59,808 bases of DNA, filler included, from 7 parts of 7 records of this genome joined end to end with filler, not necessarily neighbours in it; one strand, 5' to 3'; positions 5,934-59,808 are shown, numbered from the whole stretch's first letter. Notes: generated by a model not told the origin, from the sequence alone. A program made the numbers and translations.

Positions 5934-5940
5934 GAAATTT

Positions 5941-8784: not shown

Positions 8785-8798
8785 TGCGTTCGCTTCAT

Positions 8799-35805: not shown

Positions 35806-35851
35806 GTCAAATCTCTGTCTTAATGATCCGATGTTGAATGAGGAGGTAACG

Positions 35852-36925: not shown

Positions 36926-36948
36926 TGAATGAGAACAGGTGTGAGGGT

Positions 36949-37701: not shown

Positions 37702-37761
37702 AATGATAACTGTGCTTGTTAACAATAGGTGTGATTTCGGAGAGTTTGAGAGGAGAATATA

Positions 37762-38637: not shown

Positions 38638-38737
38638 NNNNNNNNNNNNNNNNNNNNNNNNNNNNNNNNNNNNNNNNNNNNTTAATTAATTAANNNNNNN
38701 NNNNNNNNNNNNNNNNNNNNNNNNNNNNNNNNNNNNN
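38638..38737. other. Artificial contig linker
   Basis: N44-TTAATTAATTAA-N44. Confidence 0.99.
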
Positions 38738-40232: not shown

Positions 40233-40265
40233 ATACGCTATTGAATTTTTAATAAGAAAAATACC

Positions 40266-41096
40266 ATGAACAAATATGCATTAATAATAATATTTATTGT
40301 TCTATTTACATCATGTAATGTTTATAAAACCCAAGAAGAAAACAATTCTAAAAGAAATACCATTAAGGTATGGCTAATTGGTGATTCTACCATGGCTGAT
40401 TACCGGAAACACCCTAAATACAAAGAAAGTGATAATCCTATTACAGGTTGGGGACAGGTTTTTCAGCCTTTTATGGATAGTAAATATTTGAATGATATAA
40501 AAGACTTTATAGATGCCGACACAGTAGTTGTTGATAACAGAGCTGCTGGAGGTCGAACTACCCGTTCATTTTTTGAAGAAGGGAAATGGCGAGATATTTA
40601 TAATTCAATGTTGCCTGGAGATTTCGTGTTTATTCAATTTGGTCATAATGATGCAGGGATAAAAATACCTGAAAAATATGCCTCAAGAGGTTATCCCGAA
40701 TTTGTTGATCTTGGATATAAAGAATATTTACGATTTTATGTAAGCGAAACTCGCGAAAAAGAAGGAATTCCAATATTACTAACCCCTGTAGCTCGCAATT
40801 ATCCATGGGAAAATGATACCCTTAAAAATGTACATGGAGATTTCCCAAAAAGTGTAAAAGAGGTTGTTGAAGAAATGGATGTGCTGTTTATAGACCTAAA
40901 CCAATTATCCATGGACTTTTTCACATCTAAGGGAATCGAATATGTTACTAATAATTATTTTATGAATATACCAGCAGGGAAATTGAGATCAATTCCTAAT
41001 GGATTAAAAGACAATACTCATTTTCAAACTGAAGGAGGAGACGAAGTTGCCCGGTTGGTTTATTTGGGATTAAAAGATTTAGCAAACAAAAAATAA
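40266..41096 (+). CDS. SGNH rhamnogalacturonan/pectin acetylesterase (CE12-like) lipoprotein
   Basis: GDSTM, GWG, GGRTTRSF, QFGHND, DNTHF. Confidence 0.9.
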   Translation: MNKYALIIIFIVLFTSCNVYKTQEENNSKRNTIKVWLIGDSTMADYRKHPKYKESDNPITGWGQVFQPFMDSKYLNDIKDFIDADTVVVDNRAAGGRTTRSFFEEGKWRDIYNSMLPGDFVFIQFGHNDAGIKIPEKYASRGYPEFVDLGYKEYLRFYVSETREKEGIPILLTPVARNYPWENDTLKNVHGDFPKSVKEVVEEMDVLFIDLNQLSMDFFTSKGIEYVTNNYFMNIPAGKLRSIPNGLKDNTHFQTEGGDEVARLVYLGLKDLANKK

Positions 41097-41102
41097 GAAT
41101 CA

Positions 41103-43618: not shown

Positions 43619-43645
43619 ATGCAGCGAATTTAAATTTATAGAAAA

Positions 43646-45712: not shown

Positions 45713-45742
45713 GCATAGTTAGGTAACTTAAATCTCCAGTAA

Positions 45743-47562
45743 ATGAAAACTCAAAATCTTTTAAAACCTAATAGTAAGATCAAAATTCAAAAATCATATT
45801 TAGGAATATTCTTGATTGGATTATTTCTTGCATGCTTTGCTTGTACTGATTCTAAAGAATCAGTGATCATGTTTCCGCAAAATCAAACTGAAGGTGTAAA
45901 TCCGGATACTCCACTTAAACTTATCTTTCCTAATCTACCTATTTTAGGACAGTCTGGGATGATTCGTATTTACGATTATGCAAATGATGAACTGATTGAT
46001 TCGCTGGATATGAGTATTCCTCCCGGACCAAAAAATACGAGAACACCTGCACCTTATGATAAGATGGTTTACAAGTCTGATCCATGGGATCCTGCAAATG
46101 GATATGAGCGATCAAATCGACCTAAGGTTTTTCCACCACTAGAAGATCAGTATCAGCATAAATATATTGGAGGCACATTAGAATCAGACGTATATCATTT
46201 TTATCCTGTTCTTTTTGATGAAAATGTTGCAACAATAACATTGCATAATACCTTACAATATGACAAGGAGTATTATGTGCTGATTGATGAGGGGTCTTAT
46301 CATATGCTGATAGTAGTTCATTTTCAATAACACAAAAAGATCAGTGGACTTTTTCAACAAAAGAAATACCTCCTTCTTCGGATGCTGAGATGTACACTGT
46401 TTCTGTAGATGGAACTGGCGATTTTAATACAGTTCAGGGAGCACTGGAATTTATCCCGAATAATAATCCAGAACGGAAAACCATTTACATTAAAAATGGA
46501 AAGTACCAAGAGATTGTTTACTTCCGAAACAAAGAGAATATCAGTATTGTGGGCGAAAGTCGGGAAGAAACCGTTATAGCTTATCCAAATAATGGTTTTT
46601 TTAATCCGCGCCCTAATGGAGACCGATTAGAAATGATTAAACGGTTCAGAAATCGAAGATCTATCTTTGCTGTTGATAACTCCAATGATATTCATCTTGT
46701 CAATTTCACAATACTTTCTATAGGAGAAGCACCCGCTCAGAATGAAGGTCTTCTAATTAAAGGAGACAAAAATATTGTTTATAATGTTACTATTGATGCT
46801 TCAGGTGATGCCTTGCAGGCTAACGGTAATATTTATATGGAAAAAAGCAGTATTAAAGGTTTCGGTGATAATGTTCTAGGTCGTGGGGCTGTATTCTTTA
46901 AAAACTGTGATTTTATTTCAACTTATGGCCCACATTTATGGCCACGCAATAGCTCAGATAATCATGGTAATGTGTTAGTCGAATGTAAACTATATACTGT
47001 TGGAGGAGTGAAAGCAACATTTGCAAGAGCACCGGTTAAAAAGCATTATCGTTTCCCTTATTCTGAAGCAGTGTTGATTAATTGTGCTTTGGAAAATGTT
47101 AAGCCAGAGGGATGGGGACAAACCGATTCATTATGTCCTCAAGCTCGTTGTTGGGAGTACAATAGCATAAATATAAGTGATGGAACGCCTGCCGATGTGA
47201 GCCAGCGTGCACATTATTCAAGACAACTTTCAATGGAAAATGATGCTGATATAATTGCTAATTACACTAACCCAGCATATGTGCTTGGAGGCTGGGAACC
47301 AAAACTTATTCCGTATATTTTATTGCAACCTGAAGCAAAATCGGTTGAGCAAACTTCGATAGTTGAGTTTAATGTAGAAGTTGCTGCCATTCCAAAAGCA
47401 CATTATCAATGGTATAAAGATGGTGAAAAAATTGAAGGTGAAACAAACTCTACATTAGAAATAAGTTCTACAAGTTCCAATGATGAAGGCACTTATTCTG
47501 TTGAAGCAATTAATGATTTGGGAAGCGTTATAAGTAAGCCTGTTAATTTAAAAGTTCTTTAA
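45743..47562 (+). CDS. Pectinesterase (CE8-like) lipoprotein paralogue, split by a frameshift in a G-run near 46292
   Basis: ORFs 45743-46330 and 46390-47562 join as DEGVLSYADSSSFSITQKDQWTFSTK, collinear with its two paralogues. Confidence 0.83.
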
Positions 47563-47580
47563 ACATTAAAAAGAAATAAT

Positions 47581-49953
47581 GTGATGAATATTTTCGGTTT
47601 AAGAATACAAGAAAGAATTTTCATGTTAATCCTGATTCTTCTTTTAACGAGCAGTTCCGCTTTATTTTCTCAAAATACTGATGAAAAACAAAACAATGCA
47701 AATAGAGATAAACTAGCAGCAGAAACACGTTTTTCAAGGATAAGGGAAATGCAACGTCTTTTTCGTTGGTGGGACTTGGAGGTAAGTAAGAAACCTTACT
47801 CTTGGTATCGTTCCGAATCTGGGATTAAGGCTGCTGAAAACATCCTTTCATGGCAAGATAATGGTACCGGTTGGCCTTTAATGAATACTGTTCGCAAACC
47901 TTTTACAGGAGATATGAGCAAAGTCGGACCTTGGGGTAAGAAAGCCTCTTTGAATAATGCAACGATTAATGAGATTCGCTTTCTTGCTAGAGGGTATAGG
48001 GCAACGAAAGATGAGCGCTACAAAAAAGCGACTATTGAAGGGTTAGTATATCTGTTGGAAGCACAACACGAATCGGGAGGCTGGCCTCATTCTTATCCAT
48101 ATCGGATGACAGATTATTCACACTACGCAACTTTCAACGATGAGGTAATACCTGTTATAATGACACTCTTTAATGAAGTATTAACCTTGCCTGATTTTAA
48201 GATGATAGGCGATGAAAATCTGGAAAAGATTAAAAAAGCTTATGATAAAGGTCTTGATTTTATTTTGAAAAGTCAGCTAGTTGTTGATGGGAAGCTTACA
48301 GCCTGGGCACAGCAATATGATGAAGTAAGCTATGAGCCAAAACCAGCCAGAAAATTTGAGCCTGTAGCAATTTCTGGTGGTGAGAGTGCAAGTGTTCTAC
48401 TTTTTTTAATGAGTATTCGTAAACCCTCTCAGGAATTAAAAGAAGCAGTTAAAGCTGGAGTTCAATGGTATCATGATGTTCAGATTAATGGATACAAACT
48501 AATTAAGGGAGCAGGTGATCAGTTAATTGAACCGGATTCGATAGCACCTTCTCTTTGGGCAAGATATTATGAAATAGGAACAAACAGACCAATTTTTGCA
48601 GGAAGGGATGGTATTATTAGGTATGATCTTACTGAAGTTGAATTAGAAAGACGCAAGGGCTATTCCTGGTATAATTACAATGGAAATGAGGTTTTTAATC
48701 GATATGAAGAATGGCTTCATGAACGAAAATGGGATGATCAGCCAAAAACAAATATCGATGAATCGAAAGTTGATGAGTATACTCTAATTGATCCGCTTCA
48801 AATGTTGAATGGAAATCTGGTGCGATCTATTGAGCAGTGGGAAACCAAACGACGTGCAGAAATACTAAATCTCTTCGAGCAATATCAGCATGGAAAAACA
48901 CCAGCTTCAAACCAGCTTAACATATCTCATGAAGTTTTGGAACGAAACGTTCCTGGAATGGGAGGGGCTTCAAAGCGTACTCAGGTTAGGATACATTTTC
49001 CTGATTATAAAGATTCGCCTGTTGTTCGTTTGCTCCTGAATGTGCCTGCTAATGTGAAAGGTCCTGTGCCTACATTGCTGCACATTAGTTTTTCACCCAA
49101 TGTGTTACTTTTTAATGAACCTGGAATTGATGAAGGCATGGCTTGGAATGTGAGGATGAAAATACCAATACCGGATAGGGAAGCATTTTTGTTGAAAGAC
49201 ATCAACCCGAAACATTTTATTGAAAAAGGTTATGGTATTGCTACTGTGTATTATGGAGATATTGAACCTGATTTTGATGGTGGTAAAGAATTTGGTGTCC
49301 GCTCTCTTTTTGATGATGATGGTGAAGCAAAATCTGATGAATGGGGAGCTATTGGAGCTTGGGCTTGGGGGCTCAGTCGAATAATGGATTATCTTCAAAC
49401 TGACCCGGCCGTCGATGGAAAGAAAATTGCAGTTTCAGGGGTTTCAAGGCTTGGGAAAACAGTGCTTTGGACTGCAGCACAGGATCAACGCTTTGCTATG
49501 GCAATTCCAATTGTTTCTGGAGAAGGGGGAGCGGCAACAAGTCGTCGTAACTATGGAGAAACTATTGCTGATTTAACCAATCCGTTTCGTTATGATTATT
49601 GGTTTGCACCTCGGTATGCTGAATATGCCTTTAAACCCAATGAACTGCCTGTAGATGGAAACTTGCTGCTAACCTTAATTGCTCCTCGTCCCTTGCTCCA
49701 GATTGTTGGTGTTTCAGATACCTGGTCTGATCCGAAAGGTGAGTGGGTTTCAGCTAAATCGGCAGAATCTGTTTATGTTCTCTATGGATTAAAAGGCATA
49801 GAAACAATAGATTACCCGACACCTGATAGCTCAATTCTAAACGATATGGGATTTTTCATTCATGATGCAGGTCATACTGTTATTCAAAAAGATTTTGAGA
49901 TAATGACCGATTTTATGGATAAACATTTTACAAATCAAACAATTGAAAAATAA
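47581..49953 (+). CDS. PL10 pectate lyase fused to a CE15 (glucuronoyl esterase-like) domain
   Basis: SGGWP, TFND, AWAQQYD, ARKFEP, WARYYE (PL10); then WGAIGAWAWG.SR..DYL, GVSRLGK, SGEGGAA, LIAPRP, WSDP.G (CE15). Confidence 0.85.
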   Translation: MMNIFGLRIQERIFMLILILLLTSSSALFSQNTDEKQNNANRDKLAAETRFSRIREMQRLFRWWDLEVSKKPYSWYRSESGIKAAENILSWQDNGTGWPLMNTVRKPFTGDMSKVGPWGKKASLNNATINEIRFLARGYRATKDERYKKATIEGLVYLLEAQHESGGWPHSYPYRMTDYSHYATFNDEVIPVIMTLFNEVLTLPDFKMIGDENLEKIKKAYDKGLDFILKSQLVVDGKLTAWAQQYDEVSYEPKPARKFEPVAISGGESASVLLFLMSIRKPSQELKEAVKAGVQWYHDVQINGYKLIKGAGDQLIEPDSIAPSLWARYYEIGTNRPIFAGRDGIIRYDLTEVELERRKGYSWYNYNGNEVFNRYEEWLHERKWDDQPKTNIDESKVDEYTLIDPLQMLNGNLVRSIEQWETKRRAEILNLFEQYQHGKTPASNQLNISHEVLERNVPGMGGASKRTQVRIHFPDYKDSPVVRLLLNVPANVKGPVPTLLHISFSPNVLLFNEPGIDEGMAWNVRMKIPIPDREAFLLKDINPKHFIEKGYGIATVYYGDIEPDFDGGKEFGVRSLFDDDGEAKSDEWGAIGAWAWGLSRIMDYLQTDPAVDGKKIAVSGVSRLGKTVLWTAAQDQRFAMAIPIVSGEGGAATSRRNYGETIADLTNPFRYDYWFAPRYAEYAFKPNELPVDGNLLLTLIAPRPLLQIVGVSDTWSDPKGEWVSAKSAESVYVLYGLKGIETIDYPTPDSSILNDMGFFIHDAGHTVIQKDFEIMTDFMDKHFTNQTIEK

Positions 49954-49963
49954 CCTTTTAAAT

Positions 49964-51529
49964 ATGAAATTGATAAAATTATATTTGATGATGTTTGCTT
50001 TGGTCATGGTAGTTGTATCATGTTCGACCCATTCAGTAGATTCTGTTAATAAATTCCCTGCAAATAAGGCAAAAGAGGTAAATCCCGATACGCATTTAGT
50101 ACTAAGCTTTGCCAGCAAACCAACATTAGGTAATTCGGGGATGATTCGTATTTTCGATGCGTCTGACAATCGTTTGGTTGATTCTCTTGATTTAAGTATT
50201 CCTCCAGGGCCAACCGAGAGGAACAACACAAAGGTTCCTTACATTCAATCGCCATACGAATATGTTTCAGGTAATTTTACAAATGCCAATACCAAGCCGG
50301 GTACTCCAACAGGAGGGGCAAAACCAAATTCAGATAAATACCAGCTTACAATTATTGGTGGATTTACAGATGCGTTTCATTTTTATCCGGTCATTATAAA
50401 CGATACTGTAGCAACAATATACCCGCACAACAATTTATTGGAATACGATAAGACTTATTATGTCCAAATTGATTCTGAAGTTTTTTCTTTAGCTGATAGT
50501 AGCTTTGGGGGAATTTCAGGTAAGAAAGCATGGACATTTTCAACGAAACAAATTCCACCTTCTAAAGGATCAAAAGAACTAGTTGTATCCGCAGATGGCA
50601 CTGGAGATTTTAATACGGTGCAGGGAGCAGTTGACTTTATACCGGATAATAATCCTGAACGTGTTACAATTTTTATTAAAAATGGCAGGTATGAAGAGAT
50701 CGTTTACTTCCGAAATAAATCAAATATTACGTTTTTGGGTGAAGATCGGGAAAAGACTAAAGTCTGTTATGCCAACAATGAGAAATTTAATCCGCACCCT
50801 GAAAATATTGCAAATAATGAAATGCCTGGTGCTTTCCCATATCGAAGGGCTGCATTTGCTGCTGATAATTCAAGTGGGATCCATATTATAAACATGACAA
50901 TTGAGTCGATCAATCCAAAGCCAGCTCAGGCAGAGGGATTGCTTATTGTGGGTGAAGAAAATATTGTACGTGCAGTTACCATTATTGGCTCCGGTGATGC
51001 TTTGCAAATAAATGGTTCTGTGTATCTGGAGGATGTTCAGCTCACTGGATTTGGAGATAATGTGCTCGGAAGAGGACCTGCTTTTTTCAAAAATTGTGAA
51101 TTGATTTCATTCTATGGTCCACACATGTGGATTCGAAATACGGATACAAACCATGGGAATGTATTTGTAAACTGTACTTTTCGAATGGTTGGTGATCTGG
51201 AAACAACTATTGCCCGTACTAATGATAATAGAAAAGGTGGTTATCCTTATGCTGAGGCTGTTTTGCTTAACTGCAAGTTACACGGCATTCGACCTGAAGG
51301 TTGGGGAGTGAAAGGGAAAGGCATTTCCAATATCCATTATTGGGAATATAATAGTATAAATTTAGATGATGGAAAACCGATTGATGCTAGTCAACGTCAT
51401 CCAATATCAAGGCAGTTAACAATGGAGAAGGATTCTTCAATTATTTCGAATTATAGTAACCCCTCATTTGTCTTGGGAGGGTGGAAACCGCAGATAGACC
51501 CAACAATTCTTTCTCAACTTAAAAATTAA
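49964..51529 (+). CDS. Pectinesterase (CE8-like) lipoprotein with N-terminal Ig-like domain
   Basis: VVSC lipobox; VNPDTHL, VVSADGTGDFNTVQGA, IKNGRYEE, QAEG. Confidence 0.85.
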   Translation: MKLIKLYLMMFALVMVVVSCSTHSVDSVNKFPANKAKEVNPDTHLVLSFASKPTLGNSGMIRIFDASDNRLVDSLDLSIPPGPTERNNTKVPYIQSPYEYVSGNFTNANTKPGTPTGGAKPNSDKYQLTIIGGFTDAFHFYPVIINDTVATIYPHNNLLEYDKTYYVQIDSEVFSLADSSFGGISGKKAWTFSTKQIPPSKGSKELVVSADGTGDFNTVQGAVDFIPDNNPERVTIFIKNGRYEEIVYFRNKSNITFLGEDREKTKVCYANNEKFNPHPENIANNEMPGAFPYRRAAFAADNSSGIHIINMTIESINPKPAQAEGLLIVGEENIVRAVTIIGSGDALQINGSVYLEDVQLTGFGDNVLGRGPAFFKNCELISFYGPHMWIRNTDTNHGNVFVNCTFRMVGDLETTIARTNDNRKGGYPYAEAVLLNCKLHGIRPEGWGVKGKGISNIHYWEYNSINLDDGKPIDASQRHPISRQLTMEKDSSIISNYSNPSFVLGGWKPQIDPTILSQLKN

Positions 51530-51578
51530 TCCAATCGGAAGTTCGTTGATATATAATAACCAATAAAATTTGACTAAA

Positions 51579-52052
51579 ATGAAAACTCAACTATTTAGAA
51601 AATCAATTAGCGTATTTGTTCTATTGCTTGTAGGTTTATGCGTAATGGCTGGAAATCCTAATTTTTCAGGGAACTGGAAATTAGATAAAGCTAAAAGTAC
51701 GCTCAGTACACAATACAGCTTTGCTCCTTCGTCACTTTCAATTTCACAAACAGACAATAATATTGAGGTAAGCAGAACAATAAATCTTCAGGGATCTGAG
51801 ATGAACATTATTGAAAAAGCTACATTAGATGGAAAAGAATGCAAGAATGAAGGTTACCAGGGAAGTAGTAAACTAACCACAGCAGTTTGGTCAGAAAAAG
51901 GAACTTCACTTACAGTAACGAATAAGATCGGAGGTATGGAAATGACATCTGTTCAAGTTTATTCTTTTGAAGGAGATCTGCTCACCATACAGTCATCATA
52001 TTCTTCGAGCTATGGGGATATGAAAGAAACATGGGTTTTGGCGAAAGAATAA
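51579..52052 (+). CDS. Secreted beta-barrel (lipocalin-like) hypothetical protein
   Basis: Signal peptide followed by NFSGNWKLDKAKS motif. Confidence 0.65.
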   Translation: MKTQLFRKSISVFVLLLVGLCVMAGNPNFSGNWKLDKAKSTLSTQYSFAPSSLSISQTDNNIEVSRTINLQGSEMNIIEKATLDGKECKNEGYQGSSKLTTAVWSEKGTSLTVTNKIGGMEMTSVQVYSFEGDLLTIQSSYSSSYGDMKETWVLAKE

Positions 52053-52162
52053 TCTACATTATTAAAGTGCTTTAGTAGTACTGAAGATGAAATAAGCAAT
52101 AAAATTTAAGTTGTTGAATTACAGGGTTAATGTAGTCCGTTTTGACTGCAAATGGAGAAAGT

Positions 52163-52830
52163 ATGCTTAAGAAAATGATGAAAATATTGATAGTTATTTT
52201 TGTTTCAACTGGATTTCTAACAATACAAAATAGTTACAGTCAAACGTTTTCTTCTGGTTTGGCATTGTTAGACAGTAAATGGACTGCAAATGGTTCTTTT
52301 CGTACGATTGTTGATAAACCTAAAAGATTCAGTTTGTCTGGTGTTGTTCAGTTTGATAAGCCTTATGATGGTGGAGAAGTAAAAAGTTTAATTATTGGGA
52401 GTGTGGGATATTCAGTCCTCCCTGCTGTAAATCTATTAGTTGGAACTTTTTATTCTTCATCAATAAAACTGAATCCGGCTATTTCTACTCAGTATGTATG
52501 GTCAAAAAATAAATTCAAAGGATTAGTTTATCCTATCTGGATTCTTCATGATCCAACTGTTCTTCTAACTTTTTTAGGTTTGAATATGCAAACGCAATTA
52601 ATTCTAAACTGGATTATTTCATAAGGTTTCAGCCATACATTGTTAGTGGATTTTGGAAACATCATTACACCAGGGCTGCTACTCGTGCTGGAATTAGAAT
52701 TAGAAGCTGGGAGATGGGTTTTGCAACGGATACTGATTTTGTAGGGAAAGAATTAGAGAGTACCAGTCGGTTTGGAATTTTTTTTCAAAAGAAGTTTAAA
52801 CGGAAATCGAAAAAGGAGATTTTAATATAA
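52163..52830 (+). CDS. Putative outer-membrane beta-barrel protein, frameshifted in a T-run near 52572
   Basis: Signal peptide; the shifted frame continues RFEYANAINSKLDYFIRFQ...RAGIRIRSWEMGF...RFGIFFQKKF with alternating beta-strand pattern. Confidence 0.55.
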
Positions 52831-52846
52831 ATTAAACAACATAGTT

Positions 52847-53738
52847 ATGAAAAAAGTAAATTTTTTATTGCTGTTAGCATTGTTCTCAATTGTGGTTGTT
52901 TCCAATGCGCAAATTAGACCAGCGCCTCTAAAAATGGTTCAATTTTTATTGACTCCGGATAATGACGACTGGAAGTACGATATTAATGAAGAAGCAACAA
53001 TAAAAATACAACTTACAAAATTTGGAGTTCCAGTTACCGATGCTGATATTTCGTATGAGTTTGGATCTGAAATGATGTTGCCTGAAAAGAAAGATGTCAT
53101 TGAATTGAAAAATGGAGTTGGAGAGATTAATATTGGAACTTTGGAAAAGCCTGGGTTTAAACAGTTGGTTGTAAAAGTAAATGATGATGGTGAGTTCTAC
53201 AGAGATGTAATAAAAGTTGCTTTTGCACCATCAAAAATTCAGCCAACCGTAAAACTTCCCAATGATTTTGATAGTTTCTGGAAAAAAGCACTGGAAGCAA
53301 ATTCCAAAATCCCCATGAATCCAATAGTTACTCATAAACCAGAGTATTCAACATCAACTGTTGATGTTTATTTGGTTAGTCTTCAGAATTATAATAAAGG
53401 AAAACGCTTGTATGGTTATCTGTGTAAACCTAAAGCTGAGGGAAAATATCCGGTTTTATTTCATCCACCGGGAGCTGGAATTAAAAAGGTGACCCCAAGT
53501 ACTTTTTATGCTGAGCAAGGTTTTATAAGCCTATCCATTGAAATTCATGGAATATCACCTGAAATATCTGATGAAGCATATACTGATATCCGAAATGCAT
53601 TTGGAGACTATTGGCTTGATAAGCTTGATGACAAAGATCATTACTATTATAAGAGTGTATATGTTGGCTGTGTTCGTTCTATCGATTTTTTGACAAGCTT
53701 ACCTGAGTATGATGGTGAAAATGTAGTTGTAAAAGGGG
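52847..53738 (+). CDS. Acetylxylan esterase / cephalosporin deacetylase (CE7-like), 3'-truncated
   Basis: PNDFDSFW, GKYPVLFHPPGAG, YYKSVYVGCVRSIDFL..LPEYDG. Confidence 0.85.
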
Positions 53739-53838
53739 NNNNNNNNNNNNNNNNNNNNNNNNNNNNNNNNNNNNNNNNNNNNTTAATTAATTAANNNNNN
53801 NNNNNNNNNNNNNNNNNNNNNNNNNNNNNNNNNNNNNN
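53739..53838. other. Artificial contig linker
   Basis: N44-TTAATTAATTAA-N44. Confidence 0.99.
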
Positions 53839-54265
53839 TTTGACTTAGATCTAAAAAATATTCTATATGATTTTTAAGTCAAAAATATTTAAGAATACTC
53901 TAAATAAAAACTCACTATCAAATTTATTTTTGACTTAACATTATTAATCTCAAAATCAAGTAAACTATTCATAATTATATCATTTAGAAATTTTTTTTCA
54001 ATCATTTTGAATATCTTTTCAGCATACTTATATCGCCTTTTAACTTACGATAAAACATTATAATGCTCATATTTTTTAATAACTTATCTCTTTTATTCTA
54101 GTTTTAGCTAAATAATCATTGAATCCCTATGAATGTTCATTAGGAACAATACCATGCCAACTTCTTGCAATCATAATTCTCTATTCGGTGTATTCATTTA
54201 TACATCTATTGTCTCCATTTTTTTAGTTATTACGGATATTTACTAATTTTAACCGATTTTAAAAT

Positions 54266-54327
54266 TAGTAACAAAACCTTGTAAGAGATGTAATACATAC
54301 GAAGTCCAGGTTGGCATGCTGTTAAAC
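54266..54327 (-). repeat. attC-like site downstream of the YqfO-like gene
   Basis: Minus strand GTTTAAC (overlapping the stop codon) ... GTTACTA; internal AACCT/AGGTT and ATGTA/TACAT pairing. Confidence 0.5.
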
Positions 54328-54656
54328 TAATTCAAGTTATAAATGTGGTTATGAAGTTGTATAACATTCATCAACACTTCTTCATAAGGATGGATTTCCT
54401 TAACTTTCTCAATTACAGATTCGATAAATTCTTCTGCACAACGTATCTCTAGTTTATACTCTGTTCCATAATTTACTTTGTTTTTTTCACCTGTGACAGG
54501 CTGCGCGTTATCATTTGGACACCAACTGCCTTTGATTGGATAGTATGACGCAACATGTGTATAATCCCCAACTTGACAGGCTCCTAACTTTGTTACTTCT
54601 TCAACTATTGAATCTATAAATTCTTCTGGTAAGTATATTTCTATTTTATATTGCAC
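54327..54656 (-). CDS. YqfO/NIF3-insert (PII/CutA-like) small protein
   Basis: YKIEIYLP, GACQVGDY, EYKLEI, HPYEE motif; AGGAGG SD before GTG 54656. Confidence 0.85.
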   Translation of the reverse strand: MQYKIEIYLPEEFIDSIVEEVTKLGACQVGDYTHVASYYPIKGSWCPNDNAQPVTGEKNKVNYGTEYKLEIRCAEEFIESVIEKVKEIHPYEEVLMNVIQLHNHIYNLN

Positions 54657-54727
54657 TGATTCCTCCTGTATGTACTGTTTAGAACTCACATTCCCCCGTC
54701 AAACTGTCATGTGAAGATCATGTTATT

Positions 54728-55417
54728 TTACTGAAACAAGATCTTTTCTATTTCTCCAAAATCTTCAATATAATAATCTGCAAATTCTTTTAGTATGCGA
54801 TGTTGTTCCTTATCCCTTTTTAAGAAGTGCCCTGCTAATATTGTTTTCATTCCTATTTTCTTTGCACCTTTCAACTCATCAGAGCCACCATCTCCAACAA
54901 AAATACAATTTTCTGGATTAGTACTCATTTTCTCTAATGCAATTTTATAAATTTCACTTTTGGGTTTTAAATATCCTGCTTCACATGAAAATATTGTTTC
55001 ATCAAATAAATTGCTTAGAGGAGATTCATTCCAATACATTATATCAATCACATCTGCATTGCTAATCAAACATATCTTTTTTCCTTTTTTCTTTATATCT
55101 AAAAGAACACTAAGAATTATAGGATCAATATTAATTAACGACTTTTTAAATCGTGCTTCTCTTAATTTTAATATCTCTAATTTTTCACTCTCACCAACAC
55201 TCACATTTAATTTATTAATAATATCTTGAATTATTTTTTTAGGATTTTTTTCTTGTCCACTTGCTCTTTTTATATAAAGCTCATTATCTTCTGCGTATTT
55301 TTCCCATTCGTCTTTTGTTATTTTTAATACATCATATTCATTTCTTAAATCACTATATTTTGGCACTACCAATGTAAAAAATAAATCAAAAAATACAACA
55401 TTTATATCCTTATTCAT
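54728..55417 (-). CDS. HAD family hydrolase
   Basis: FFDLFFTL motif I, ISN, KP, FVGDGGSDELKGA. Confidence 0.9.
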   Translation of the reverse strand: MNKDINVVFFDLFFTLVVPKYSDLRNEYDVLKITKDEWEKYAEDNELYIKRASGQEKNPKKIIQDIINKLNVSVGESEKLEILKLREARFKKSLINIDPIILSVLLDIKKKGKKICLISNADVIDIMYWNESPLSNLFDETIFSCEAGYLKPKSEIYKIALEKMSTNPENCIFVGDGGSDELKGAKKIGMKTILAGHFLKRDKEQHRILKEFADYYIEDFGEIEKILFQ

Positions 55418-55447
55418 ATTTAAATTCGCCCCTTTTCATCTTTATTA

Positions 55448-55538
55448 GAGTAACTATATAGTGTAGTCACTATTACCATAAAACATTCAAAAAGTATGAC
55501 TTTACCATGGTGAGTGGCGGGACACAGATGTGTTACAT
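55448..55538 (-). repeat. attC-like site between GNAT and HAD genes
   Basis: Minus ATGTAAC ... GTTACTC; plus-strand stem GTGT/ACAC, GTCACT/AGTGGC, TACCAT/ATGGTG with G-T pairs and bulges. Confidence 0.6.
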
Positions 55539-55592
55539 GTATGACTAGGCGATGTTTTGTACACAGCTATTCGGTCTAAATCTAACTTTGTA

Positions 55593-56006
55593 TCAAAGTT
55601 CCTTTTTCAAAACTATGTCTTCACCATTTGCATTCAATACAGACCAACCATTATTGACATACAACTCCGGTACATTGGTTTGAGCATAAAGAAATTTGTA
55701 TCCATATTCTTTTGATATTTTCTCTGCAGAATTTATAAGTTTAGAGCCTACGCCAAGACCTCTCATAGATGAATGAACATAAAGTGCGTTAATCCAAAGC
55801 GTTGCGTCATCTTTTTCAGGATTTTGATATGCCGTAAAAGCCAAACCACCTATTAATTTTTCGTTATTAATCGCTAAGATTGGACTAGGTAACCTAATGC
55901 CTAGCTTAATCTCCGTAAATTCTCCGTACTCTCCCCATATTTCTTCATACCAGTTTCGCAGTTGAATCAAATGAGGAGAAGTAAAATTAGAATTTGTAAT
56001 AATCAT
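55593..56006 (-). CDS. GNAT family N-acetyltransferase
   Basis: WINALYVHSSMRGLGVGSKLI motif A, LYVNNGW; AAGGAGG SD before ATG 56006. Confidence 0.88.
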   Translation of the reverse strand: MIITNSNFTSPHLIQLRNWYEEIWGEYGEFTEIKLGIRLPSPILAINNEKLIGGLAFTAYQNPEKDDATLWINALYVHSSMRGLGVGSKLINSAEKISKEYGYKFLYAQTNVPELYVNNGWSVLNANGEDIVLKKEL

Positions 56007-56033
56007 TTTTTCCTCCTTAGTAATTAAATTAAA

Positions 56034-56157
56034 CTGTGTCATTGAAATTTTAATGTCATTACTATCCTGTAAAATTTCAACTGGCAATATTCCAGCTTTG
56101 GTTTTTTGTTTATAATAAATGCTGTTTCAGAGAGGTTCAGCTCTCTTGCGATTTCTT
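56034..56157 (-). pseudogene. Deleted remnant of a PhzF-family (diaminopimelate epimerase-like) gene
   Basis: EIARELNLSETAFII fused out of frame to QKTKAGILPVEI...ISMTQ; both are PhzF segments normally far apart. Confidence 0.7.
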
Positions 56158-56211
56158 ACGCATGTTGTGGACAATCTGTTAGGAGGTGCATAATATCTCC
56201 CATTAAAAAAC

Positions 56212-56991
56212 CTATAACCTCAACGAAACCAATCTTCTCGCTTTTTCCACTGCTACCTTCAAATATTCTTCAGCAGATAGTTCAGCGTAATCCCACTTCA
56301 TTGCTTCCAAAGATATATTACCTGTATAGCCTGTATTAGCAATACCCTTCATAACGGAAGCCCAATCGATGCTCCCATCAAAAGGTAGTCCGTGCATTCC
56401 ATGGCTTCCATTATCATCATGTAAATGTAGTGCCATTAATTTCGATCCAAATTCTGAAAGCATATCAAAATCAGGGTAATAGTGATAGTGATGACCTGAG
56501 TCATAACAGAATCCAACTCTATCTGAATCTATCTCGCTTAACACATATCTAATGTTCGATAGATTACGTAGATTCTCTAAAGCTATATTGATTTCCTTCT
56601 GTTCTGCTAATTCTGCAATCTTTTTAAAGCGTTTTAATCCAAATTCCGTGCATAAATGATCTTCGTTTGGTAAGTGTATTACCATAGTGGGAATTTCAAA
56701 TGATTGACAATCTCGTATACATTGCAGATAACAGTCATACATTTCTCTGCCAGCCAAACTATCATCCCAAAGAGTATTCGCATACTCTACTGGTGTGTGA
56801 ATATTCTCAATTAATAATCCTGATTCCCGTGCCATTCGGGGGGAATTAAGATAATCATCAACTCCAAACTTATCTCGTCCAAATTCATTACTCCACCACA
56901 TCAATACACCATCAAAACCGACTTCCTTCATCAATCTATAACGTTCCAGCATTGGTGTATCTCCATCAAACCAATCCCACATTGATATCAT
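56212..56991 (-). CDS. Sugar phosphate isomerase/epimerase (AP endonuclease 2 TIM barrel)
   Basis: IALENL, FCYDSGH, LHLHDDNG, HGLPFDGSIDW, SLE. Confidence 0.9.
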   Translation of the reverse strand: MISMWDWFDGDTPMLERYRLMKEVGFDGVLMWWSNEFGRDKFGVDDYLNSPRMARESGLLIENIHTPVEYANTLWDDSLAGREMYDCYLQCIRDCQSFEIPTMVIHLPNEDHLCTEFGLKRFKKIAELAEQKEINIALENLRNLSNIRYVLSEIDSDRVGFCYDSGHHYHYYPDFDMLSEFGSKLMALHLHDDNGSHGMHGLPFDGSIDWASVMKGIANTGYTGNISLEAMKWDYAELSAEEYLKVAVEKARRLVSLRL

Positions 56992-57046
56992 AATAATCTC
57001 CTATCTCAAAATAGTATTCAGATGCTACATGTCTTCTAATATGAGT

Positions 57047-57094
57047 CTCTAACTATGTAACGAAAGGCGTATTTTGGAAACAGACGTGTTAGCT
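57047..57094 (-). repeat. Internally deleted attC-like site
   Basis: Minus AGCTAAC ... GTTAGAG; both ends (TAACTAT..., ...ACAGAYGTGTTA) match the 55448-55538 site. Confidence 0.55.
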
Positions 57095-57125
57095 AAAGTT
57101 CATTTTCTTTCTTAAAAACCAAGTT

Positions 57126-57962
57126 CTAGTCATACTCTAGCGTCATACCGACACCAACTTCTTGTATATCAACAGCTCGAGACAATTCTATTTTCGATTT
57201 CAAATCTGTACAATGGCATGCGTGTACTTTTTTGATGTTCAAACGTCGGAAGTAGTCTACTGTTTTTTCTAGTATATCACGTTCAGGATTTAGTAGATGG
57301 AAACCTCCGATTATATCTACTATTCGTTCCTCTCCGCAAACCTTTTTTGCATAATCAACAATATTACAAATACCTGCATGTGAACAGCCAGTAATAATGA
57401 CTAAGCCTTCTGATGATTTGTACACCAAAGCCGAATCATCAAGCACATAGTCATTTTTCTCTACTCCGTTTTCTTCATAAGTGCCTATTGCAACTTTTCC
57501 TTCAAAATCGTTTTTTCGCTCAATTTCACCTAGAAATACGATGTTATCTGTTAACCAATGTGGTTTCTTCGTTAAGTTCGTTTCATAGTGTTTTTCTAGT
57601 TTGGCTTTGCTTATGATGCTACCTATATCTTCCTTGCCAATACACTTATACTCTAGTGCATCTGGATGAGATATAAACTTAGGTTGTTTATACTCTAAGC
57701 CTTCAATAATTGCTTCTGTTTGTAACCTCATTAAGGGAACAAGTCCCCATGTATGATCGATATGTCCATGCGATATTACTATGTAGTCAATATTGTATAA
57801 ATTCAACTGCTTTTTCATAGCATTCCTAATGAAAATGTCGGAATATCCTGCATCAAATAATATATTTGTATTTTCATCTTCGATGTAAAATGATACACTG
57901 GGTTCTGCTTGGAAATATCTATCGATTAATGTGTTGTTATCTACTAGTACATGTATTTTCAT
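57126..57962 (-). CDS. MBL-fold metallo-hydrolase (7,8-dihydropterin-6-yl-methyl...synthase-like group)
   Basis: ILFDAG, SHGHIDH, TGCSHAGI, IGGFHL, CHCT. Confidence 0.9.
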   Translation of the reverse strand: MKIHVLVDNNTLIDRYFQAEPSVSFYIEDENTNILFDAGYSDIFIRNAMKKQLNLYNIDYIVISHGHIDHTWGLVPLMRLQTEAIIEGLEYKQPKFISHPDALEYKCIGKEDIGSIISKAKLEKHYETNLTKKPHWLTDNIVFLGEIERKNDFEGKVAIGTYEENGVEKNDYVLDDSALVYKSSEGLVIITGCSHAGICNIVDYAKKVCGEERIVDIIGGFHLLNPERDILEKTVDYFRRLNIKKVHACHCTDLKSKIELSRAVDIQEVGVGMTLEYD

Positions 57963-58025
57963 ATTTCCATACCTTTCTAATTCGATTATTTTTACTTTCA
58001 TCACAAAAACTTGAAAATGAATTTT

Positions 58026-58101
58026 AGCTAACGTTTAGCTTATTTCTGACGCAACAATACACCCACTGTTATTCTGTTGTGTTGGAAATACACTGTTAGG
58101 C
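58026..58101 (-). repeat. attC-like site (best preserved)
   Basis: Minus GCCTAAC (RYYYAAC) 12 nt after the stop ... GTTAGCT; plus-strand 16-bp stem TATTTCTGACGCAACA/TGTTGTGTTGGAAATA with three G-T pairs. Confidence 0.75.
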
Positions 58102-58113
58102 GGAGTTCTCCGT

Positions 58114-58809
58114 TTACTTAATCATTTCTTTTACTATGCTCTCTACATGGATTTCTACTGTGTTCAAAAATTTTATATCTATTTCATCTTCCTTCTTTAA
58201 CAACAGTGGTAGTTCAGTACACCCAAGAATTAAGCCATCAATATGATCTTCTATTCTCATTCTTTCTATGATTTTTAAGAATTCATTTTTTGTTTCCCTT
58301 TTGATAACACCGATCTCTAATTCAGAGACTATCTTCTCATGAATATAATCTCGTTCTATACTTTTGGGAATAATTGGTTCTATGTTATGTTCTAAAATTT
58401 CTTTTTTGAAAAATTCTTCTTCCATTGTGAATTTTGTTCCGATTAAACCAATACGTTTTAGACCCAATTCTTTAGCTTTCTTCGATGTTGCGACTAATAT
58501 GCTGATTAATGGAACAGGTGATAATTCATTGAGGTGATTAAAAACAATATGTGGAGTGTTTGCACCTATTGCACAAATTTCTGCTCCCGCTTGATATCCT
58601 TCTTTTATAGCAGATAGCAAATAATCAGTTACTTTTTCATACTCCTTTTTTCCAACCATTTCGAGCAACTTATGTACATTCAAAGAATTAATTAGGAATT
58701 CTGGTATTTCCTCACTACTCATCATATCTTGATAACTTTTTATAATCAATTGATAATAATCTAAAGTTGCTTCTGGACCTAGTCCACCAATTAAACAGAA
58801 TTTTTTCAT
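58114..58809 (-). CDS. Aspartate/glutamate racemase family protein
   Basis: IGGLGPEATLDYY, GANTPH, LIGTKFTM, LGCTELP. Confidence 0.92.
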   Translation of the reverse strand: MKKFCLIGGLGPEATLDYYQLIIKSYQDMMSSEEIPEFLINSLNVHKLLEMVGKKEYEKVTDYLLSAIKEGYQAGAEICAIGANTPHIVFNHLNELSPVPLISILVATSKKAKELGLKRIGLIGTKFTMEEEFFKKEILEHNIEPIIPKSIERDYIHEKIVSELEIGVIKRETKNEFLKIIERMRIEDHIDGLILGCTELPLLLKKEDEIDIKFLNTVEIHVESIVKEMIK

Positions 58810-58857
58810 TTTTATCTTCCTTTCATTCTTTGTTTTAAGATTTTAATAGGGGATTTT

Positions 58858-58918
58858 ACCTAACGTTGAATGTCATAAGTGAAGAGTGCTTTTTATTTCA
58901 TCAGTAGAAGTGTTAAGT
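58858..58918 (-). repeat. attC-like site
   Basis: Minus ACTTAAC (perfect RYYYAAC containing the TAA stop of the upstream gene) ... GTTAGGT (perfect GTTRRRY); weak internal pairing. Confidence 0.65.
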
Positions 58919-59602
58919 GATATCCAAATACACTTCGATAAGACCTCTTGCTAATGATTTTGACGAATCAATGTACTCGATTTCTTCCCTTGATTCAAGT
59001 ACTACGTTTAAGTCAGTACATGCAACAATAATTTTCTGGACACCTTTTTCTATTGCCCGTGAAATTAATTGATTCCAAATCATTTTTGTTTTTTCAATTT
59101 CTTCATTGTTCTTTATACGAAGAATTACTTGATTTATTGTTTCCTGCCATTTTTCTTCAAATATATATTCACATTTCTTTAATTCAACACCTTTTTGATA
59201 CAATCCTGACTTCATTGTCATTTCAGTAGCGAATATACTAACCTTTGCGCCCTCCTCAATATCCTTCACAGTTTCATTCACGATGTTTAATACAGGTAAT
59301 TCTATATTCTTTGTAATATAATCAAAATGAGCATGGGCACTATTACATGGAATTCCAATTACATCAACGTCACATTTTTGAAGCTTCTCAATGCCTTCTT
59401 TTATAGATGTTTTTAATTGTTCTTCATTGGTTTCTCTATCAATATAGAAAGGAGTTGGTAAGGAATAAACTATTATATGAGGATAATCAATGTCATATTT
59501 TGCACCATACTGTTCTTGACATTGATCAAGCAGTAATTCTAGAAATGGACTTGTTGATCTCGGACCCATTCCAGCTAAAATTCCTATTGTTGTTTTTTTC
59601 AT
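58913..59602 (-). CDS. Aspartate/glutamate racemase family protein
   Basis: IGILAGMGPRST, IPCNSAH, VACTDL; AGGAG SD before ATG 59602. Confidence 0.92.
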   Translation of the reverse strand: MKKTTIGILAGMGPRSTSPFLELLLDQCQEQYGAKYDIDYPHIIVYSLPTPFYIDRETNEEQLKTSIKEGIEKLQKCDVDVIGIPCNSAHAHFDYITKNIELPVLNIVNETVKDIEEGAKVSIFATEMTMKSGLYQKGVELKKCEYIFEEKWQETINQVILRIKNNEEIEKTKMIWNQLISRAIEKGVQKIIVACTDLNVVLESREEIEYIDSSKSLARGLIEVYLDIT

Positions 59603-59610
59603 GTTATTTC

Positions 59611-59669
59611 TCCTAACTTCGTTCAATAGTTGCCGACGCCATCCTTTTGATTAAAACGGCATGGGCGTC
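59611..59669 (-). repeat. Partial attC-like site upstream of the last racemase
   Basis: Minus GTTAGGA core directly before the SD; adjacent bulged hairpin GACGCC-AT-CC-TTTT/AAAA-c-GG-c-AT-g-GGCGTC; far core not recognisable. Confidence 0.45.
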
Positions 59670-59808
59670 AGCTCACAATTTATTTCTTCAAGTATTGCTG
59701 TGTATATGGACAAACAACAATACACTTCCCACATAGGGTGATTTCTTTATTTATATTCTCTGCTGAAAGCCTTCTTGCTTCTCTTCTACATTCAATGGGA
59801 TTAAAAAA

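What the first reader, a model, noticed from the sequence alone, without database searches (positions are those of the whole stretch)
54266..59669. Integron-like gene-cassette array with divergent attC-like sites in a low-GC, Bacillota-like contig
Seen: seven functionally unrelated genes (two racemases, MBL hydrolase, sugar isomerase, GNAT, HAD, YqfO) all lie on the minus strand. Each is followed within 0-55 nt of its stop by an nnnTAAC core: ACTTAAC 58912-18, GCCTAAC 58095-101, AGCTAAC 57088-94, TCCTAAC 56178-84, ATGTAAC 55532-38, AAATAAC 54722-28, GTTTAAC 54321-27. Three cores overlap the stop codon. Five close 48-91 bp later with a GTTA core (GTTAGGT, GTTAGCT, GTTAGAG, GTTACTC, GTTACTA). 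Established: RYYYAAC...GTTRRRY imperfect palindromes after single promoterless ORFs define integron attC sites, and characterised integrons come mainly from Gram-negative phyla. Inference: strong SD motifs, low GC and gene families suggest a clostridial host, so this may be a poorly described Bacillota cassette-capture system with an integrase outside the contig.
Basis: partly seen in the sequence, partly recalled or inferred. Interest (0 to 1): 0.88.

Follow-up and report, generated by a model that had tools for sequence, protein, structure and literature searches.

The report
Worn integron-like gene cassette array
A 6-kb metagenome fragment from a Clostridia-like bacterium carries a row of unrelated small genes whose junctions look like worn-down integron recombination sites, so it is probably an old gene-cassette array without its integrase, not a proven new capture system.

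Summary
However, the "59.8-kb contig" is seven unrelated contigs joined by N-linkers, and the array lies on its own 5,970-nt piece (53839-59808).

- **Real signal:** TAACA follows all 7 genes. No 5-mer did so in 3000 shuffles, and it follows 6 of 48 control genes.
- **Junctions 0-2** share an integron-type closing core. Two read AACGTTAG, the only two copies in the window.
- **The MBL gene** is bracketed by the best inverted repeat of the piece (20 nt, 19 matched). It starts exactly at GTTA and ends at TAAC, as expected for a cassette once closed at G|TT.
- **Gene strand:** no terminator-like site on it, and no promoter-like site in the six intergenic gaps. No synteny in the relatives examined.
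- **Weak point:** the defining attC hairpin is missing. The rest have free energies near zero, against -12 to -33 kcal/mol for real attC controls.
- **Covariance model:** my model built from real attC sites ranks junctions 1-3 first, but at noise-level scores.
- **Host and integrase:** homologues are Bacillota. No integrase can be seen.

Verdict: a partly decayed, CALIN-like cassette array (about 50%). An ordinary gene cluster (about 28%) and an active non-classical system (about 12%) remain open. Moderate interest.

The parts
59683..59808 (-). 3' end of a gene cut by the contig end (42 codons, weak 4Fe-4S match). This is the upstream-most cassette, number 0.
59608..59690 (-). Junction 0. Imperfect bulged hairpin followed by the R'-like core AAGTTAGGAGAAAT (GTTA at 59617-59614). 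It has no TAAC core.
   Evidence: gene strand -11.9 kcal/mol, z -3.5, 0 of 200 shuffles as good
58913..59602 (-). Cassette 1: amino-acid racemase (TIGR00035, above cut-off).
58858..58918 (-). Junction 1. R'' ACTTAAC overlaps the stop. R' is AACGTTAGGT (58867-58858). It does not fold.
   Evidence: (11.1 bits, E 0.25, R boxes only)
58114..58809 (-). Cassette 2: second amino-acid racemase, 22% identical to the first.
58026..58101 (-). Junction 2. R'' GCCTAAC, a 16-nt imperfect inverted repeat (58041-58056 / 58075-58090), and R' AACGTTAGCT. This is the only site with both cores and a hairpin.
   Evidence: bottom strand -11.7, z -3.1; 9.5 bits, E 0.6
58013..58032 (-). 5' end-repeat of the MBL unit, GTTAGCTAAAATTCATTTTC. 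It starts at the R' core of junction 2.
   Evidence: I1: 20 nt, 95% complementary, 905 nt between the arms; highest-ranked pair for the piece
57126..57962 (-). Cassette 3: MBL-fold hydrolase.
57088..57107 (-). 3' end-repeat of the MBL unit, GAAAATGAACTTTAGCTAAC. It ends at the R'' core of junction 3. The single mismatch is C.A on the gene strand, which is G.T on the + strand.
57047..57094 (-). Junction 3. R'' AGCTAAC, then a weak R' (GTTAGAG). Only 48 nt and no fold.
   Evidence: 6.5 bits, E 2.8
56212..56991 (-). Cassette 4: AP_endonuc_2 TIM-barrel protein (sugar phosphate isomerase/epimerase family).
56178..56184 (-). Junction 4 core TCCTAAC. It has no closing core. The 206-nt spacer holds an 11-bp perfect inverted repeat (56042-56052 / 56070-56080).
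55593..56006 (-). Cassette 5: GNAT acetyltransferase.
55448..55538 (-). Junction 5. Core ATGTAAC and a chance-level GTTACTC. No significant fold.
   Evidence: -6.6 kcal/mol, z -0.75
54728..55417 (-). Cassette 6: HAD-IA hydrolase, the lowest GC3 of the array (0.17).
54722..54728 (-). Junction 6 core AAATAAC. It has no closing core.
54327..54653 (-). Cassette 7: small protein with only a sub-threshold CutA1-like match.
54240..54327 (-). Junction 7. Core GTTTAAC, then GTTACTA, which opens a perfect 13-bp hairpin (54240-54252 / 54259-54271).
53839..54239 (.). Tail of the piece with no ORF of 50 aa or more. It holds a short frame broken by stops (from about 54174 downwards) and a high-copy segment at the contig end (depth 245.8 against 28.1).

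Best explanation
The 5,970-nt piece is most likely an integrase-less, partly decayed integron-type gene-cassette array (CALIN-like) from an uncultured Clostridia-type bacterium. It holds seven whole single-gene cassettes, plus one cut by the contig end and a gene remnant. All are read on the minus strand, probably from a promoter beyond 59808.

Each cassette ends in a YTAACA inverse core. The three upstream junctions still carry the matching closing core (A-M-S-GTTAG-S-W-R-AAAT).

The MBL cassette still shows what a cassette once closed into a circle at G|TT should show. Its first 20 bases pair with its last 20, starting exactly at GTTA and ending at TAAC.

Most junctions have lost the inner hairpin (L boxes), so the array is probably no longer able to recombine.

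Shown here: the motifs, their statistics, the end-repeat, the lack of folding, and the Bacillota affinity of the genes. Inferred: the origin by site-specific recombination, the decay, and co-transcription.
For: 1. TAACA follows 7 of 7 genes. In 0 of 3000 shuffles did any 5-mer reach 7 of 7. Controls: 6 of 40 and 0 of 8 genes.
2. Junctions 0, 1 and 2 share a 14-column R' block. AACGTTAG occurs only twice in 59.8 kb, both times on the gene strand, 56 and 71 nt (pattern span) downstream of a TAACA core. All 14 real attC sites that I aligned have C before GTT.
3. The highest-ranked inverted repeat in the piece (20 nt, 95%) brackets the MBL gene and begins and ends at the GTTA and TAAC cores. In 57.9 kb of control Clostridia DNA, no pair more than 100 nt apart reached 90% among those shown.
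4. A covariance model built from 22 attC sites of five integrons (7 picked by me, 15 added from model hits) ranks junctions 1, 2 and 3, on the gene strand, as its three best hits in the piece (11.1, 9.5 and 6.5 bits). The control Clostridia DNA, about 129 kb once the locus searched in both calls is counted once, gave 3 hits of 9.5 bits or more in its first 68 kb. The second search, which listed only E 5 or below, added none.
5. There is no terminator-like site on the gene strand anywhere in the piece, and no promoter-like site in the six gaps between the seven genes. Each gene has its own Shine-Dalgarno sequence.
6. None of the other array genes lies within about 8 kb of the TIM homologue in five Clostridia loci.
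7. The best TIM-barrel hit among the sampled Clostridia genomes (57%, genome G049) is itself one unit of a long same-strand array of unrelated small genes. Its junctions carry TAAC...AACGTTAG cores and a 15-bp outer stem, and that genome has no IntI.
Against: 1. The defining attC fold is absent. The best forced R''/R' closures give +0.6 to -7.4 kcal/mol and z +0.4 to -1.7. Real attC sites from five integrons give -12 to -33 kcal/mol and z -1.6 to -6.4.
2. The covariance model matches only the R boxes. Its scores overlap the noise: up to 11.8 to 12.1 bits in control loci.
3. Only 1 of 7 cassettes has long end-pairing.
4. Four of the seven junctions that follow whole genes (3, 5, 6, 7) have no R' beyond a chance-level GTTA or none at all, and junction 4 has none.
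5. GC3 is fairly even across the genes (0.17-0.30), and all tested genes look native to Bacillota. So nothing points to recent capture.
6. No integrase or attI is in view. No integron integrase was found in 381 sampled Clostridia genomes, though at most 5 candidates were scored per genome and no control matched in that call.
7. A model of the G049 junction block does not hit the window's junctions.
8. The motifs were chosen after looking at the sequence, so all P values are optimistic.
Confidence: 0.5

Rival explanations
1. This is an ordinary, co-transcribed cluster of accessory enzyme genes in a low-GC Clostridia genome. The TAACA and GTTAG motifs and the one long inverted repeat have no recombination meaning. 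They are chance, a stop-context bias, or an unknown regulatory or RNA-processing signal.
For: - Most junctions do not fold.
- The genes have 52-77% Bacillota relatives, and 6 inspected MBL homologues in other Clostridia are stand-alone genes without such repeats.
- GC3 is fairly even.
- Covariance-model scores are at noise level.
- The window-wide count of AACGTTAG is not unusual.
Against: - TAACA in 7 of 7 windows against 0 of 3000 shuffles and 6 of 48 control genes.
- Both AACGTTAG copies lie at consecutive junctions on the gene strand.
- A 20-nt, 95% end-repeat is anchored on the two cores.
- Spacers of 77-206 nt carry no terminator-like or promoter-like sites.
- No synteny was found.
Confidence: 0.28
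2. This is an active, non-classical cassette system of Clostridia. Its sites need only the YTAACA/GTTAG cores plus pairing of a cassette's own ends (an 'extended R box'). They are recombined by a recombinase other than a canonical IntI, for example a Xer-like one encoded elsewhere.
For: - The MBL unit has 20-nt paired ends with one G.T position on the + strand.
- The integrase-less array in Clostridia genome G049 has a 15-bp outer stem running outward from TAAC/GTTA, at least 10 junction copies, and only Xer-type recombinase matches.
- Earlier unchecked notes of this scan describe TAAC-cored arrays with paired cassette ends. These are a lead only.
Against: - Only 1 of 7 cassettes shows end-pairing.
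- The junctions differ greatly in length and content.
- No homology to the G049 junction block.
- The composite site pattern is absent from 401 sampled Clostridia genomes.
- No recombinase is in view and there is no population evidence of movement.
Confidence: 0.12
3. Only the MBL unit is special. It is either a small mobile insertion bounded by terminal inverted repeats (a passenger gene in a MITE-like element), or its flanking repeats form a long-range RNA stem that lets the cistron be cut out of a polycistronic transcript. The rest of the row is ordinary.
For: - The 945-nt unit has 20-nt terminal inverted repeats.
- Read by eye, the flanks share 'ACG' next to 19-nt arms, and the sequence left of the unit (AGCTAAAC) resembles the unit's own right end (AGCTAAC).
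Against: - It does not explain TAACA after the other six genes, or the shared R' block of junctions 0-2.
- No transposase is present.
- The repeat was not found in viral contigs.
- A 2-3-nt flank match is weak evidence.
Confidence: 0.07

Closest known systems
CALIN elements (clusters of attC sites lacking an integron integrase) and sedentary chromosomal integron arrays, as defined with IntegronFinder (Cury et al. 2016, PMC4889954; passages read)
   Same: A row of same-strand, single-gene units with unrelated functions. Each is followed by an ...AAC inverse core. GTTAG closing cores occur at three junctions. One unit has ends that pair from the cores. No integrase is nearby. CALIN have been reported in Firmicutes.
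   Different: Most junctions lack the R/L-box hairpin that defines attC. Sites are 48-91 nt with free energies near zero. My stand-in covariance model scores them at noise level. IntegronFinder itself was not run.
Classical attC sites of class 1 and class 3 mobile integrons and of the Thiodictyon, Kovacikia and Gemmatirosa integrons, used here as positive controls
   Same: R'' nnnTAAC(A) close to or overlapping the stop. R' preceded by AAC/C (AACGTTAGGT, AACGTTAGCT). The spacing of junctions 1 and 2 (61 and 76 nt) lies within the range of real sites (60-114 nt in my set).
   Different: Real sites fold at -12 to -33 kcal/mol with z down to -6.4, and score 12-79 bits with my models. The window's sites fold at +0.6 to -7.4 kcal/mol and score 6.5-11.1 bits.
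Same-strand array of small unrelated genes in Clostridia-class genome G049
   Same: Clostridia-class host. Same-strand small unrelated genes (methyltransferase, NUDIX, HIT, deaminase, metallophosphoesterase, and a TIM-barrel homologue 57% identical to the window's). TAAC...AACGTTAG cores. A stem running outward from the cores. No IntI in the genome.
   Different: The G049 junctions are GC-rich, 190-460 nt long, and are copies of one repeat family. The window's junctions are AT-rich, short, unlike each other, and not hit by a model of the G049 block.
pdif modules of Acinetobacter plasmids (recalled from memory; not tested with any call)
   Same: Single-gene modules bracketed by inverted recombination sites, with no dedicated integrase nearby.
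   Different: pdif sites are 28-bp XerC/XerD sites that alternate in orientation. Here all cores point the same way, and by eye the sequences next to TAACA do not continue like a XerD arm.

Membership tests
integron attC site | Inverse core (R'', ...AAC) on the gene strand within tens of bases after each single ORF | tested here: met
   TAAC(A) follows 7 of 7 genes, 0-54 nt after the stop. Strict RYYYAAC is met by 3 of 7 (by eye).
integron attC site | Core site (R', GTTRRRY, preceded by C as in 14 of 14 real sites aligned here) closing the site 50-150 nt later | tested here: inconclusive
   Met at junctions 1 and 2 (AACGTTAGGT, AACGTTAGCT) and nearly at junction 0. Junctions 3, 5 and 7 have only GTTA. 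Junctions 4 and 6 have none.
integron attC site | Single strand folds into an imperfect hairpin with paired R and L boxes | tested here: not met
The best forced R''/R' closures give +0.6 to -7.4 kcal/mol, z +0.4 to -1.7. Real controls give -12 to -33 kcal/mol, z -1.6 to -6.4.
integron attC site | Detected by an attC covariance model | tested here: inconclusive
   With my own model R2 (22 attC sites from five integrons), junctions 1-3 are the top three hits of the piece, but at 11.1, 9.5 and 6.5 bits and with only the R boxes aligned. Held-out real sites score 12-28 bits, and only 3 of 6 Thiodictyon sites were found. Noise reaches about 12 bits. IntegronFinder's own model could not be run.
integron gene cassette | The first bases of a cassette (TTRRRY after the G|TT cut) pair with its own R'' | tested here: inconclusive
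   MBL cassette: 19 of 20. Racemase-2 cassette: 6 of 7, others 5 of 7, by eye. No other long end-repeats were found.
complete integron | IntI-type tyrosine recombinase with the IntI-specific insertion, with attI and Pc next to the first cassette | not testable with these tools
   The piece ends at 59808. A 9,247-nt contig of the source run goes on for 3,276 nt at one end, but its letters are not given. No genome is held for the window.
CALIN | Two or more attC sites within 4 kb and no integrase | tested here: inconclusive
   This depends on whether junctions 1 and 2 count as attC. They pass E<1 only because the search space is 12 kb.

The most novel reading that the evidence does not exclude
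Clostridia may carry a working gene-cassette system of their own, in which a unit needs only a YTAACA/GTTAG core pair and pairing of its own two ends (as in the MBL unit here and in the long integrase-less array of genome G049). A recombinase that is not a canonical integron integrase would move the units. The window would then be an AT-rich, minimal-site member of that system.
Probability: 0.12. Interest if true: 0.8.

Novelty: new variant of a known kind. Interest (0 to 1): 0.4.

Why it matters
Integrons are almost unknown in Gram-positive bacteria. Only a few integrase-less attC clusters and one complete integron have been reported there.

If arrays like this one are relics of cassette capture, then Clostridia have used integron-type recombination in the past or still do. 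That bears on how accessory genes, including defence and resistance genes, move in that group.

On its own, this fragment is too short and its sites too worn to settle the question. Its main value is as a pointer: to the unseen 3.3 kb upstream, and to the much clearer array in genome G049.

Tried and rejected
- **Own genome.** None is held for the window.
- **Rfam.** No attC family exists there. A real Thiodictyon array gives nothing either, so the blank on the window means nothing.
- **Neighbouring pieces for taxonomy.** Rejected once the N-linkers were seen. My one genome-contig scan went on HtpG of piece 1, which is Desulfuromusa-like and irrelevant to the array.
- **Positive controls from Desulfuromusa.** The IntI fragments of Desulfuromusa kysingii were not next to usable arrays.
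- **Metagenome scan with racemase 1.** Two loci, both ordinary contexts.
- **Viral contigs.** No MBL relative and no copy of the end-repeat.
- **Read laying.** The two 'joints' (skips of 2406 and 2687 nt) have sides of 20 and 25 letters, below the tool's own caution line of 30. I do not count them as cassette loss.
- **Second run.** Run X2 holds next to none of the words.
- **Synteny test.** My GNAT query was out of frame in that script, so 7 of 8 queries were valid.
- **Order of G049.** It has only two genomes, with no racemase match.
- **Composite pattern.** TAACAN{40,70}AACGTTAGSWRAAAT gave 0 of 401 Clostridia genomes. The pattern was derived after the fact from the two window sites.
- **Model R3 of the G049 junction block.** It gave no hit at the window's junctions. 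One + strand hit inside the last gene (11.1 bits) was taken as chance.
- **MAFFT plus RNAalifold on 14 real attC sites.** This gave no consensus structure, so I set the structure by hand from constrained folds.
- **My regex and fold script.** It mis-delimited 2 of the 6 class 1/3 control sites that it returned from 9 intergenic stretches.
- **Generic AAC...GTT fold scanner.** It was not specific in GC-rich DNA.
- **Systematic scoring of cassette-end pairing.** Lost when the script machine failed. The repeat finder was used instead.
- **dif/XerD half-site and cre-box readings of TAACA.** Considered by eye and dropped, because the flanks do not fit.
- **Not used.** Structure prediction and complex prediction.
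- **Closed.** Supplements of the two IntegronFinder papers. Their lists of Firmicutes CALIN could bear on the novelty claim.

Full report
**What the window is.** The 59,808-base window is not one contig. It holds 528 N, arranged as six linkers of N44 + TTAATTAATTAA + N44. These split it into seven pieces with GC from 0.32 to 0.46.
- Piece 1 encodes an HtpG that is 87% identical to that of Desulfuromusa.
- The piece just before the array (38738-53738) is a pectin-degradation locus. Its proteins carry T9SS sorting tails, and its genes lack Shine-Dalgarno sequences.
- The finding lies wholly on the last piece, 53839-59808 (5,970 nt, GC 0.32).

So everything about host and context has to come from those 6 kb. 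No genome is held for the window.

**The observation.** The gene families are right, apart from 'YqfO', which is only a sub-threshold CutA1-like match.

The core is really TAACA.
- It occurs in all seven 68-nt windows that begin at a stop codon. No other 5-mer is in more than four.
- In 3000 shuffles that kept the stop codons in place, no 5-mer ever reached seven of seven.
- The same motif follows 6 of 40 other ORFs of the window and 0 of 8 genes of a related low-GC contig.

The closing side is weaker. I did not test bare GTTA, and by my own estimate it is about as frequent as chance would give. However, AACGTTAG occurs only twice in the whole window, both times on the gene strand, at junctions 1 and 2. 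Junctions 0, 1 and 2 share a longer block, A-M-S-GTTAG-S-W-R-AAAT.

**Do the sites fold like attC?** Mostly not.
- With DNA parameters, the unconstrained folds of sites 1, 3, 6 and 7 are -0.3 to -3.2 kcal/mol.
- With R'' and R' forced to pair, the best closure at each of the seven cores gives +0.6, -7.4, -0.8, -6.0, -6.6, -1.5 and -2.5 kcal/mol. The z-scores lie between +0.4 and -1.7.
- As positive controls I took real arrays next to annotated integron integrases in plasmids of Thiodictyon and Kovacikia, and in class 1 and class 3 integrons. Their attC sites give -12 to -33 kcal/mol and z -1.6 to -6.4.
- Only site 2 is comparable (bottom strand -11.7, z -3.1). So is the spacer upstream of the first racemase, 'junction 0' (-11.9, z -3.5). 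Site 1 is not (-1.1, z +1.2).

**A stand-in for IntegronFinder.** Rfam has no attC family, so I built covariance models from real sites.
- R1 was built from 7 sites. It recovered 15 further sites, among them 11 in an unannotated Gemmatirosa array, and found nothing in the window.
- R2 was built from those 22 sites. With filters off on the 5,970-nt piece, its three best hits are junctions 1, 2 and 3 on the gene strand: 11.1 bits (E 0.25), 9.5 bits (E 0.6) and 6.5 bits (E 2.8). Only the R boxes align, and the whole interior is skipped.
- Held-out real sites score 12-28 bits, and only 3 of 6 Thiodictyon sites were found, so the model is not very sensitive.
- Likely noise reaches 11.8 bits there. 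About 129 kb of control Clostridia DNA was searched. Its first 68 kb gave three hits of 9.5 bits or more, the best of which turned out to lie in an array. The second search listed only E 5 or below and added none.

The result is borderline. The order and placement of the hits fit an array, but their scores do not prove one.

**The ends of each cassette.** Earlier notes of this scan (leads only) prompted me to compare each unit's own two ends, rather than the two ends of each spacer.

The highest-ranked inverted repeat that the repeat finder returns for the piece has arms at 57088-57107 and 58013-58032. It is 20 nt long, 95% complementary, with 905 nt between the arms.
- It brackets the MBL gene exactly.
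- On the gene strand it starts with the GTTAGCT of junction 2 and ends with the AGCTAAC of junction 3.
- This is what the integron model predicts for a unit cut at G|TT, but it is much longer than the usual 7 bases.
- Its one mismatch is a G.T pair on the + strand.
- No other cassette has such ends.
- By eye, the racemase-2 cassette's ends match 6 of 7, and the others 5 of 7.
- In 57.9 kb of control Clostridia DNA, no distant repeat of 17 nt or more reached 90% among the pairs shown.
- Six MBL homologues in other Clostridia are not bracketed in this way.

**Context that fits a cassette row.**
- There is no terminator-like site on the gene strand anywhere in the piece, and no promoter-like site in the six gaps between the seven genes.
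- Spacers are 77-206 nt, and each gene has its own ribosome-binding site.
- The two racemases are only 22% identical.
- None of the other array genes lies near the TIM-barrel homologue in five Clostridia loci, nor near the racemase homologues of two metagenome contigs. Seven of the eight queries were valid.

**Host.**
- Every source name among the 120 listed TIM-barrel homologues that gives a taxon gives a Bacillota one. Identity is 54-62%, with an unnamed best hit at 77%.
- TIM and MBL relatives of up to 57% and 59% occur in 35 and 27 of 399 sampled Clostridia genomes.
- GC3 of the genes is 0.17-0.30.

**A relative that is clearer.** The best TIM-barrel hit among the sampled genomes lies in genome G049. 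There it is one unit of a row of at least 11 same-strand small unrelated genes: DUF2442, a methyltransferase, a metallophosphoesterase, NUDIX, HIT, a deaminase and others.
- The row is separated by GC-rich repeats that carry CTAACAATGCATCTTCAC-type and AACGTTAGATGACAT-type blocks.
- One junction folds with a 15-bp outer stem that runs outward from TAAC/GTTA.
- A model of the left block finds five further copies in the next 17 kb.
- That genome has only Xer-type matches to the integron-integrase family, the best at 80.6 bits against a cut-off of 265.
- No match at E 1e-65 or better was found in 381 sampled Clostridia genomes. At most five candidates per genome were scored, and no control matched in that call.
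- The window's junctions are not hit by the G049 model. The two arrays therefore share only the generic cores.

**What is known.**
- Cury et al. 2016 found no complete integron in Firmicutes, but did find CALIN there (passages read).
- Néron et al. 2022 report one complete integron in Firmicutes (Limnochorda pilosa) and 'a few CALIN' (passages read).
- My two full-text searches listed nothing that describes integron-like arrays in Clostridia. I judged this from titles and abstract starts only.
- Supplements were closed.

**What could not be seen.** Only one public run holds the DNA (0.99 of its sampled words) and it is probably the source.
- In that run, a 9,247-nt contig contains the piece as its positions 3277-9247.
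- So 3,276 more bases exist at one end.
- I infer that this is the 59808 (upstream) end, because the other end is a high-copy segment (depth 245.8 against 28.1) where assemblies tend to break.
- Those bases are the obvious place to look for an integrase.

**Verdict.** The motif observation is real for the TAACA cores and for three closing cores. It is not real for the 'palindromes'.
- The best reading is a partly decayed, integrase-less cassette array of integron type in a Clostridia-like bacterium (0.5).
- An ordinary accessory gene cluster remains a serious rival (0.28).
- A working non-classical cassette system is the boldest reading that the data allow (0.12).
- Because a defining feature of attC, the fold, was tested and not met, I do not file the sites as attC. 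I call the thing a variant of a known kind.

Noticed in passing
window 8825-8924, 16303-16402, 21633-21732, 27405-27504, 38638-38737, 53739-53838: Six N44+TTAATTAATTAA+N44 linkers. The window is seven separate contigs of different composition (GC 0.32-0.46) laid end to end, so no inference may cross them.
   Followed up: yes
L121 1-10366 and L143 (genome G049, contig C34, 14000-41365): Long same-strand array of small unrelated genes in a Clostridia-class genome. GC-rich junction repeats carry TAAC...AACGTTAG cores and a 15-bp outer stem. There are at least 10 junction copies and no integron integrase in the genome. It looks like a much better candidate for a Clostridia cassette system than the window itself.
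   Followed up: partly
window 14385-15599 and 9378-12059: A SMODS-domain (CBASS-type) nucleotidyltransferase gene and a ResIII helicase/endonuclease gene on piece 2. This may be a defence island.
   Followed up: no
window 34507-53794: Pectin-degradation locus (pectate lyases, pectinesterases, GDSL and glucuronyl esterases). Several proteins carry T9SS C-terminal sorting domains, next to Wza/Wzz-type genes. Starts lack Shine-Dalgarno sequences, which suggests a Bacteroidota/FCB-type organism.
   Followed up: no
window 53839-54037: The end of the array piece is a high-copy segment in the source run (summed depth 245.8 against 28.1), with several small inverted repeats. It may be the edge of an insertion sequence or a MITE, and it is the probable cause of the assembly break.
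   Followed up: no
window about 54080-54174, minus strand: A short frame starting MIARSWHG... and broken by in-frame stops. From memory it resembles the start of small ABM/Dabb-type proteins. No tool was run on it. It may be a decayed last cassette.
   Followed up: no
window 56042-56080 and 54240-54271: Two perfect small inverted repeats in spacers: 11 bp (TTGAAATTTTA/TAAAATTTCAA) upstream of the GNAT gene, and 13 bp (TTACTAATTTTAA/TTAAAATTAGTAA) just after the last core. The second begins at the GTTA and could be an empty 'mini-cassette' or an operator.
   Followed up: no
G001 (Desulfuromusa kysingii) contigs C25, C9, C26, C23, C15, C1: Several fragments matching the integron-integrase family (up to 207 bits over 125 residues), mostly at contig ends and some with stop codons. 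They may be remains of integron integrase genes (integrons or their remnants) that are broken in the assembly.
   Followed up: partly
L097 10037-17306 (Gemmatirosa kalamazoonensis plasmid 1, record without annotation): Eleven evenly spaced attC-model hits on one strand beside an integron-integrase match. This looks like a sedentary integron in an unannotated record.
   Followed up: no
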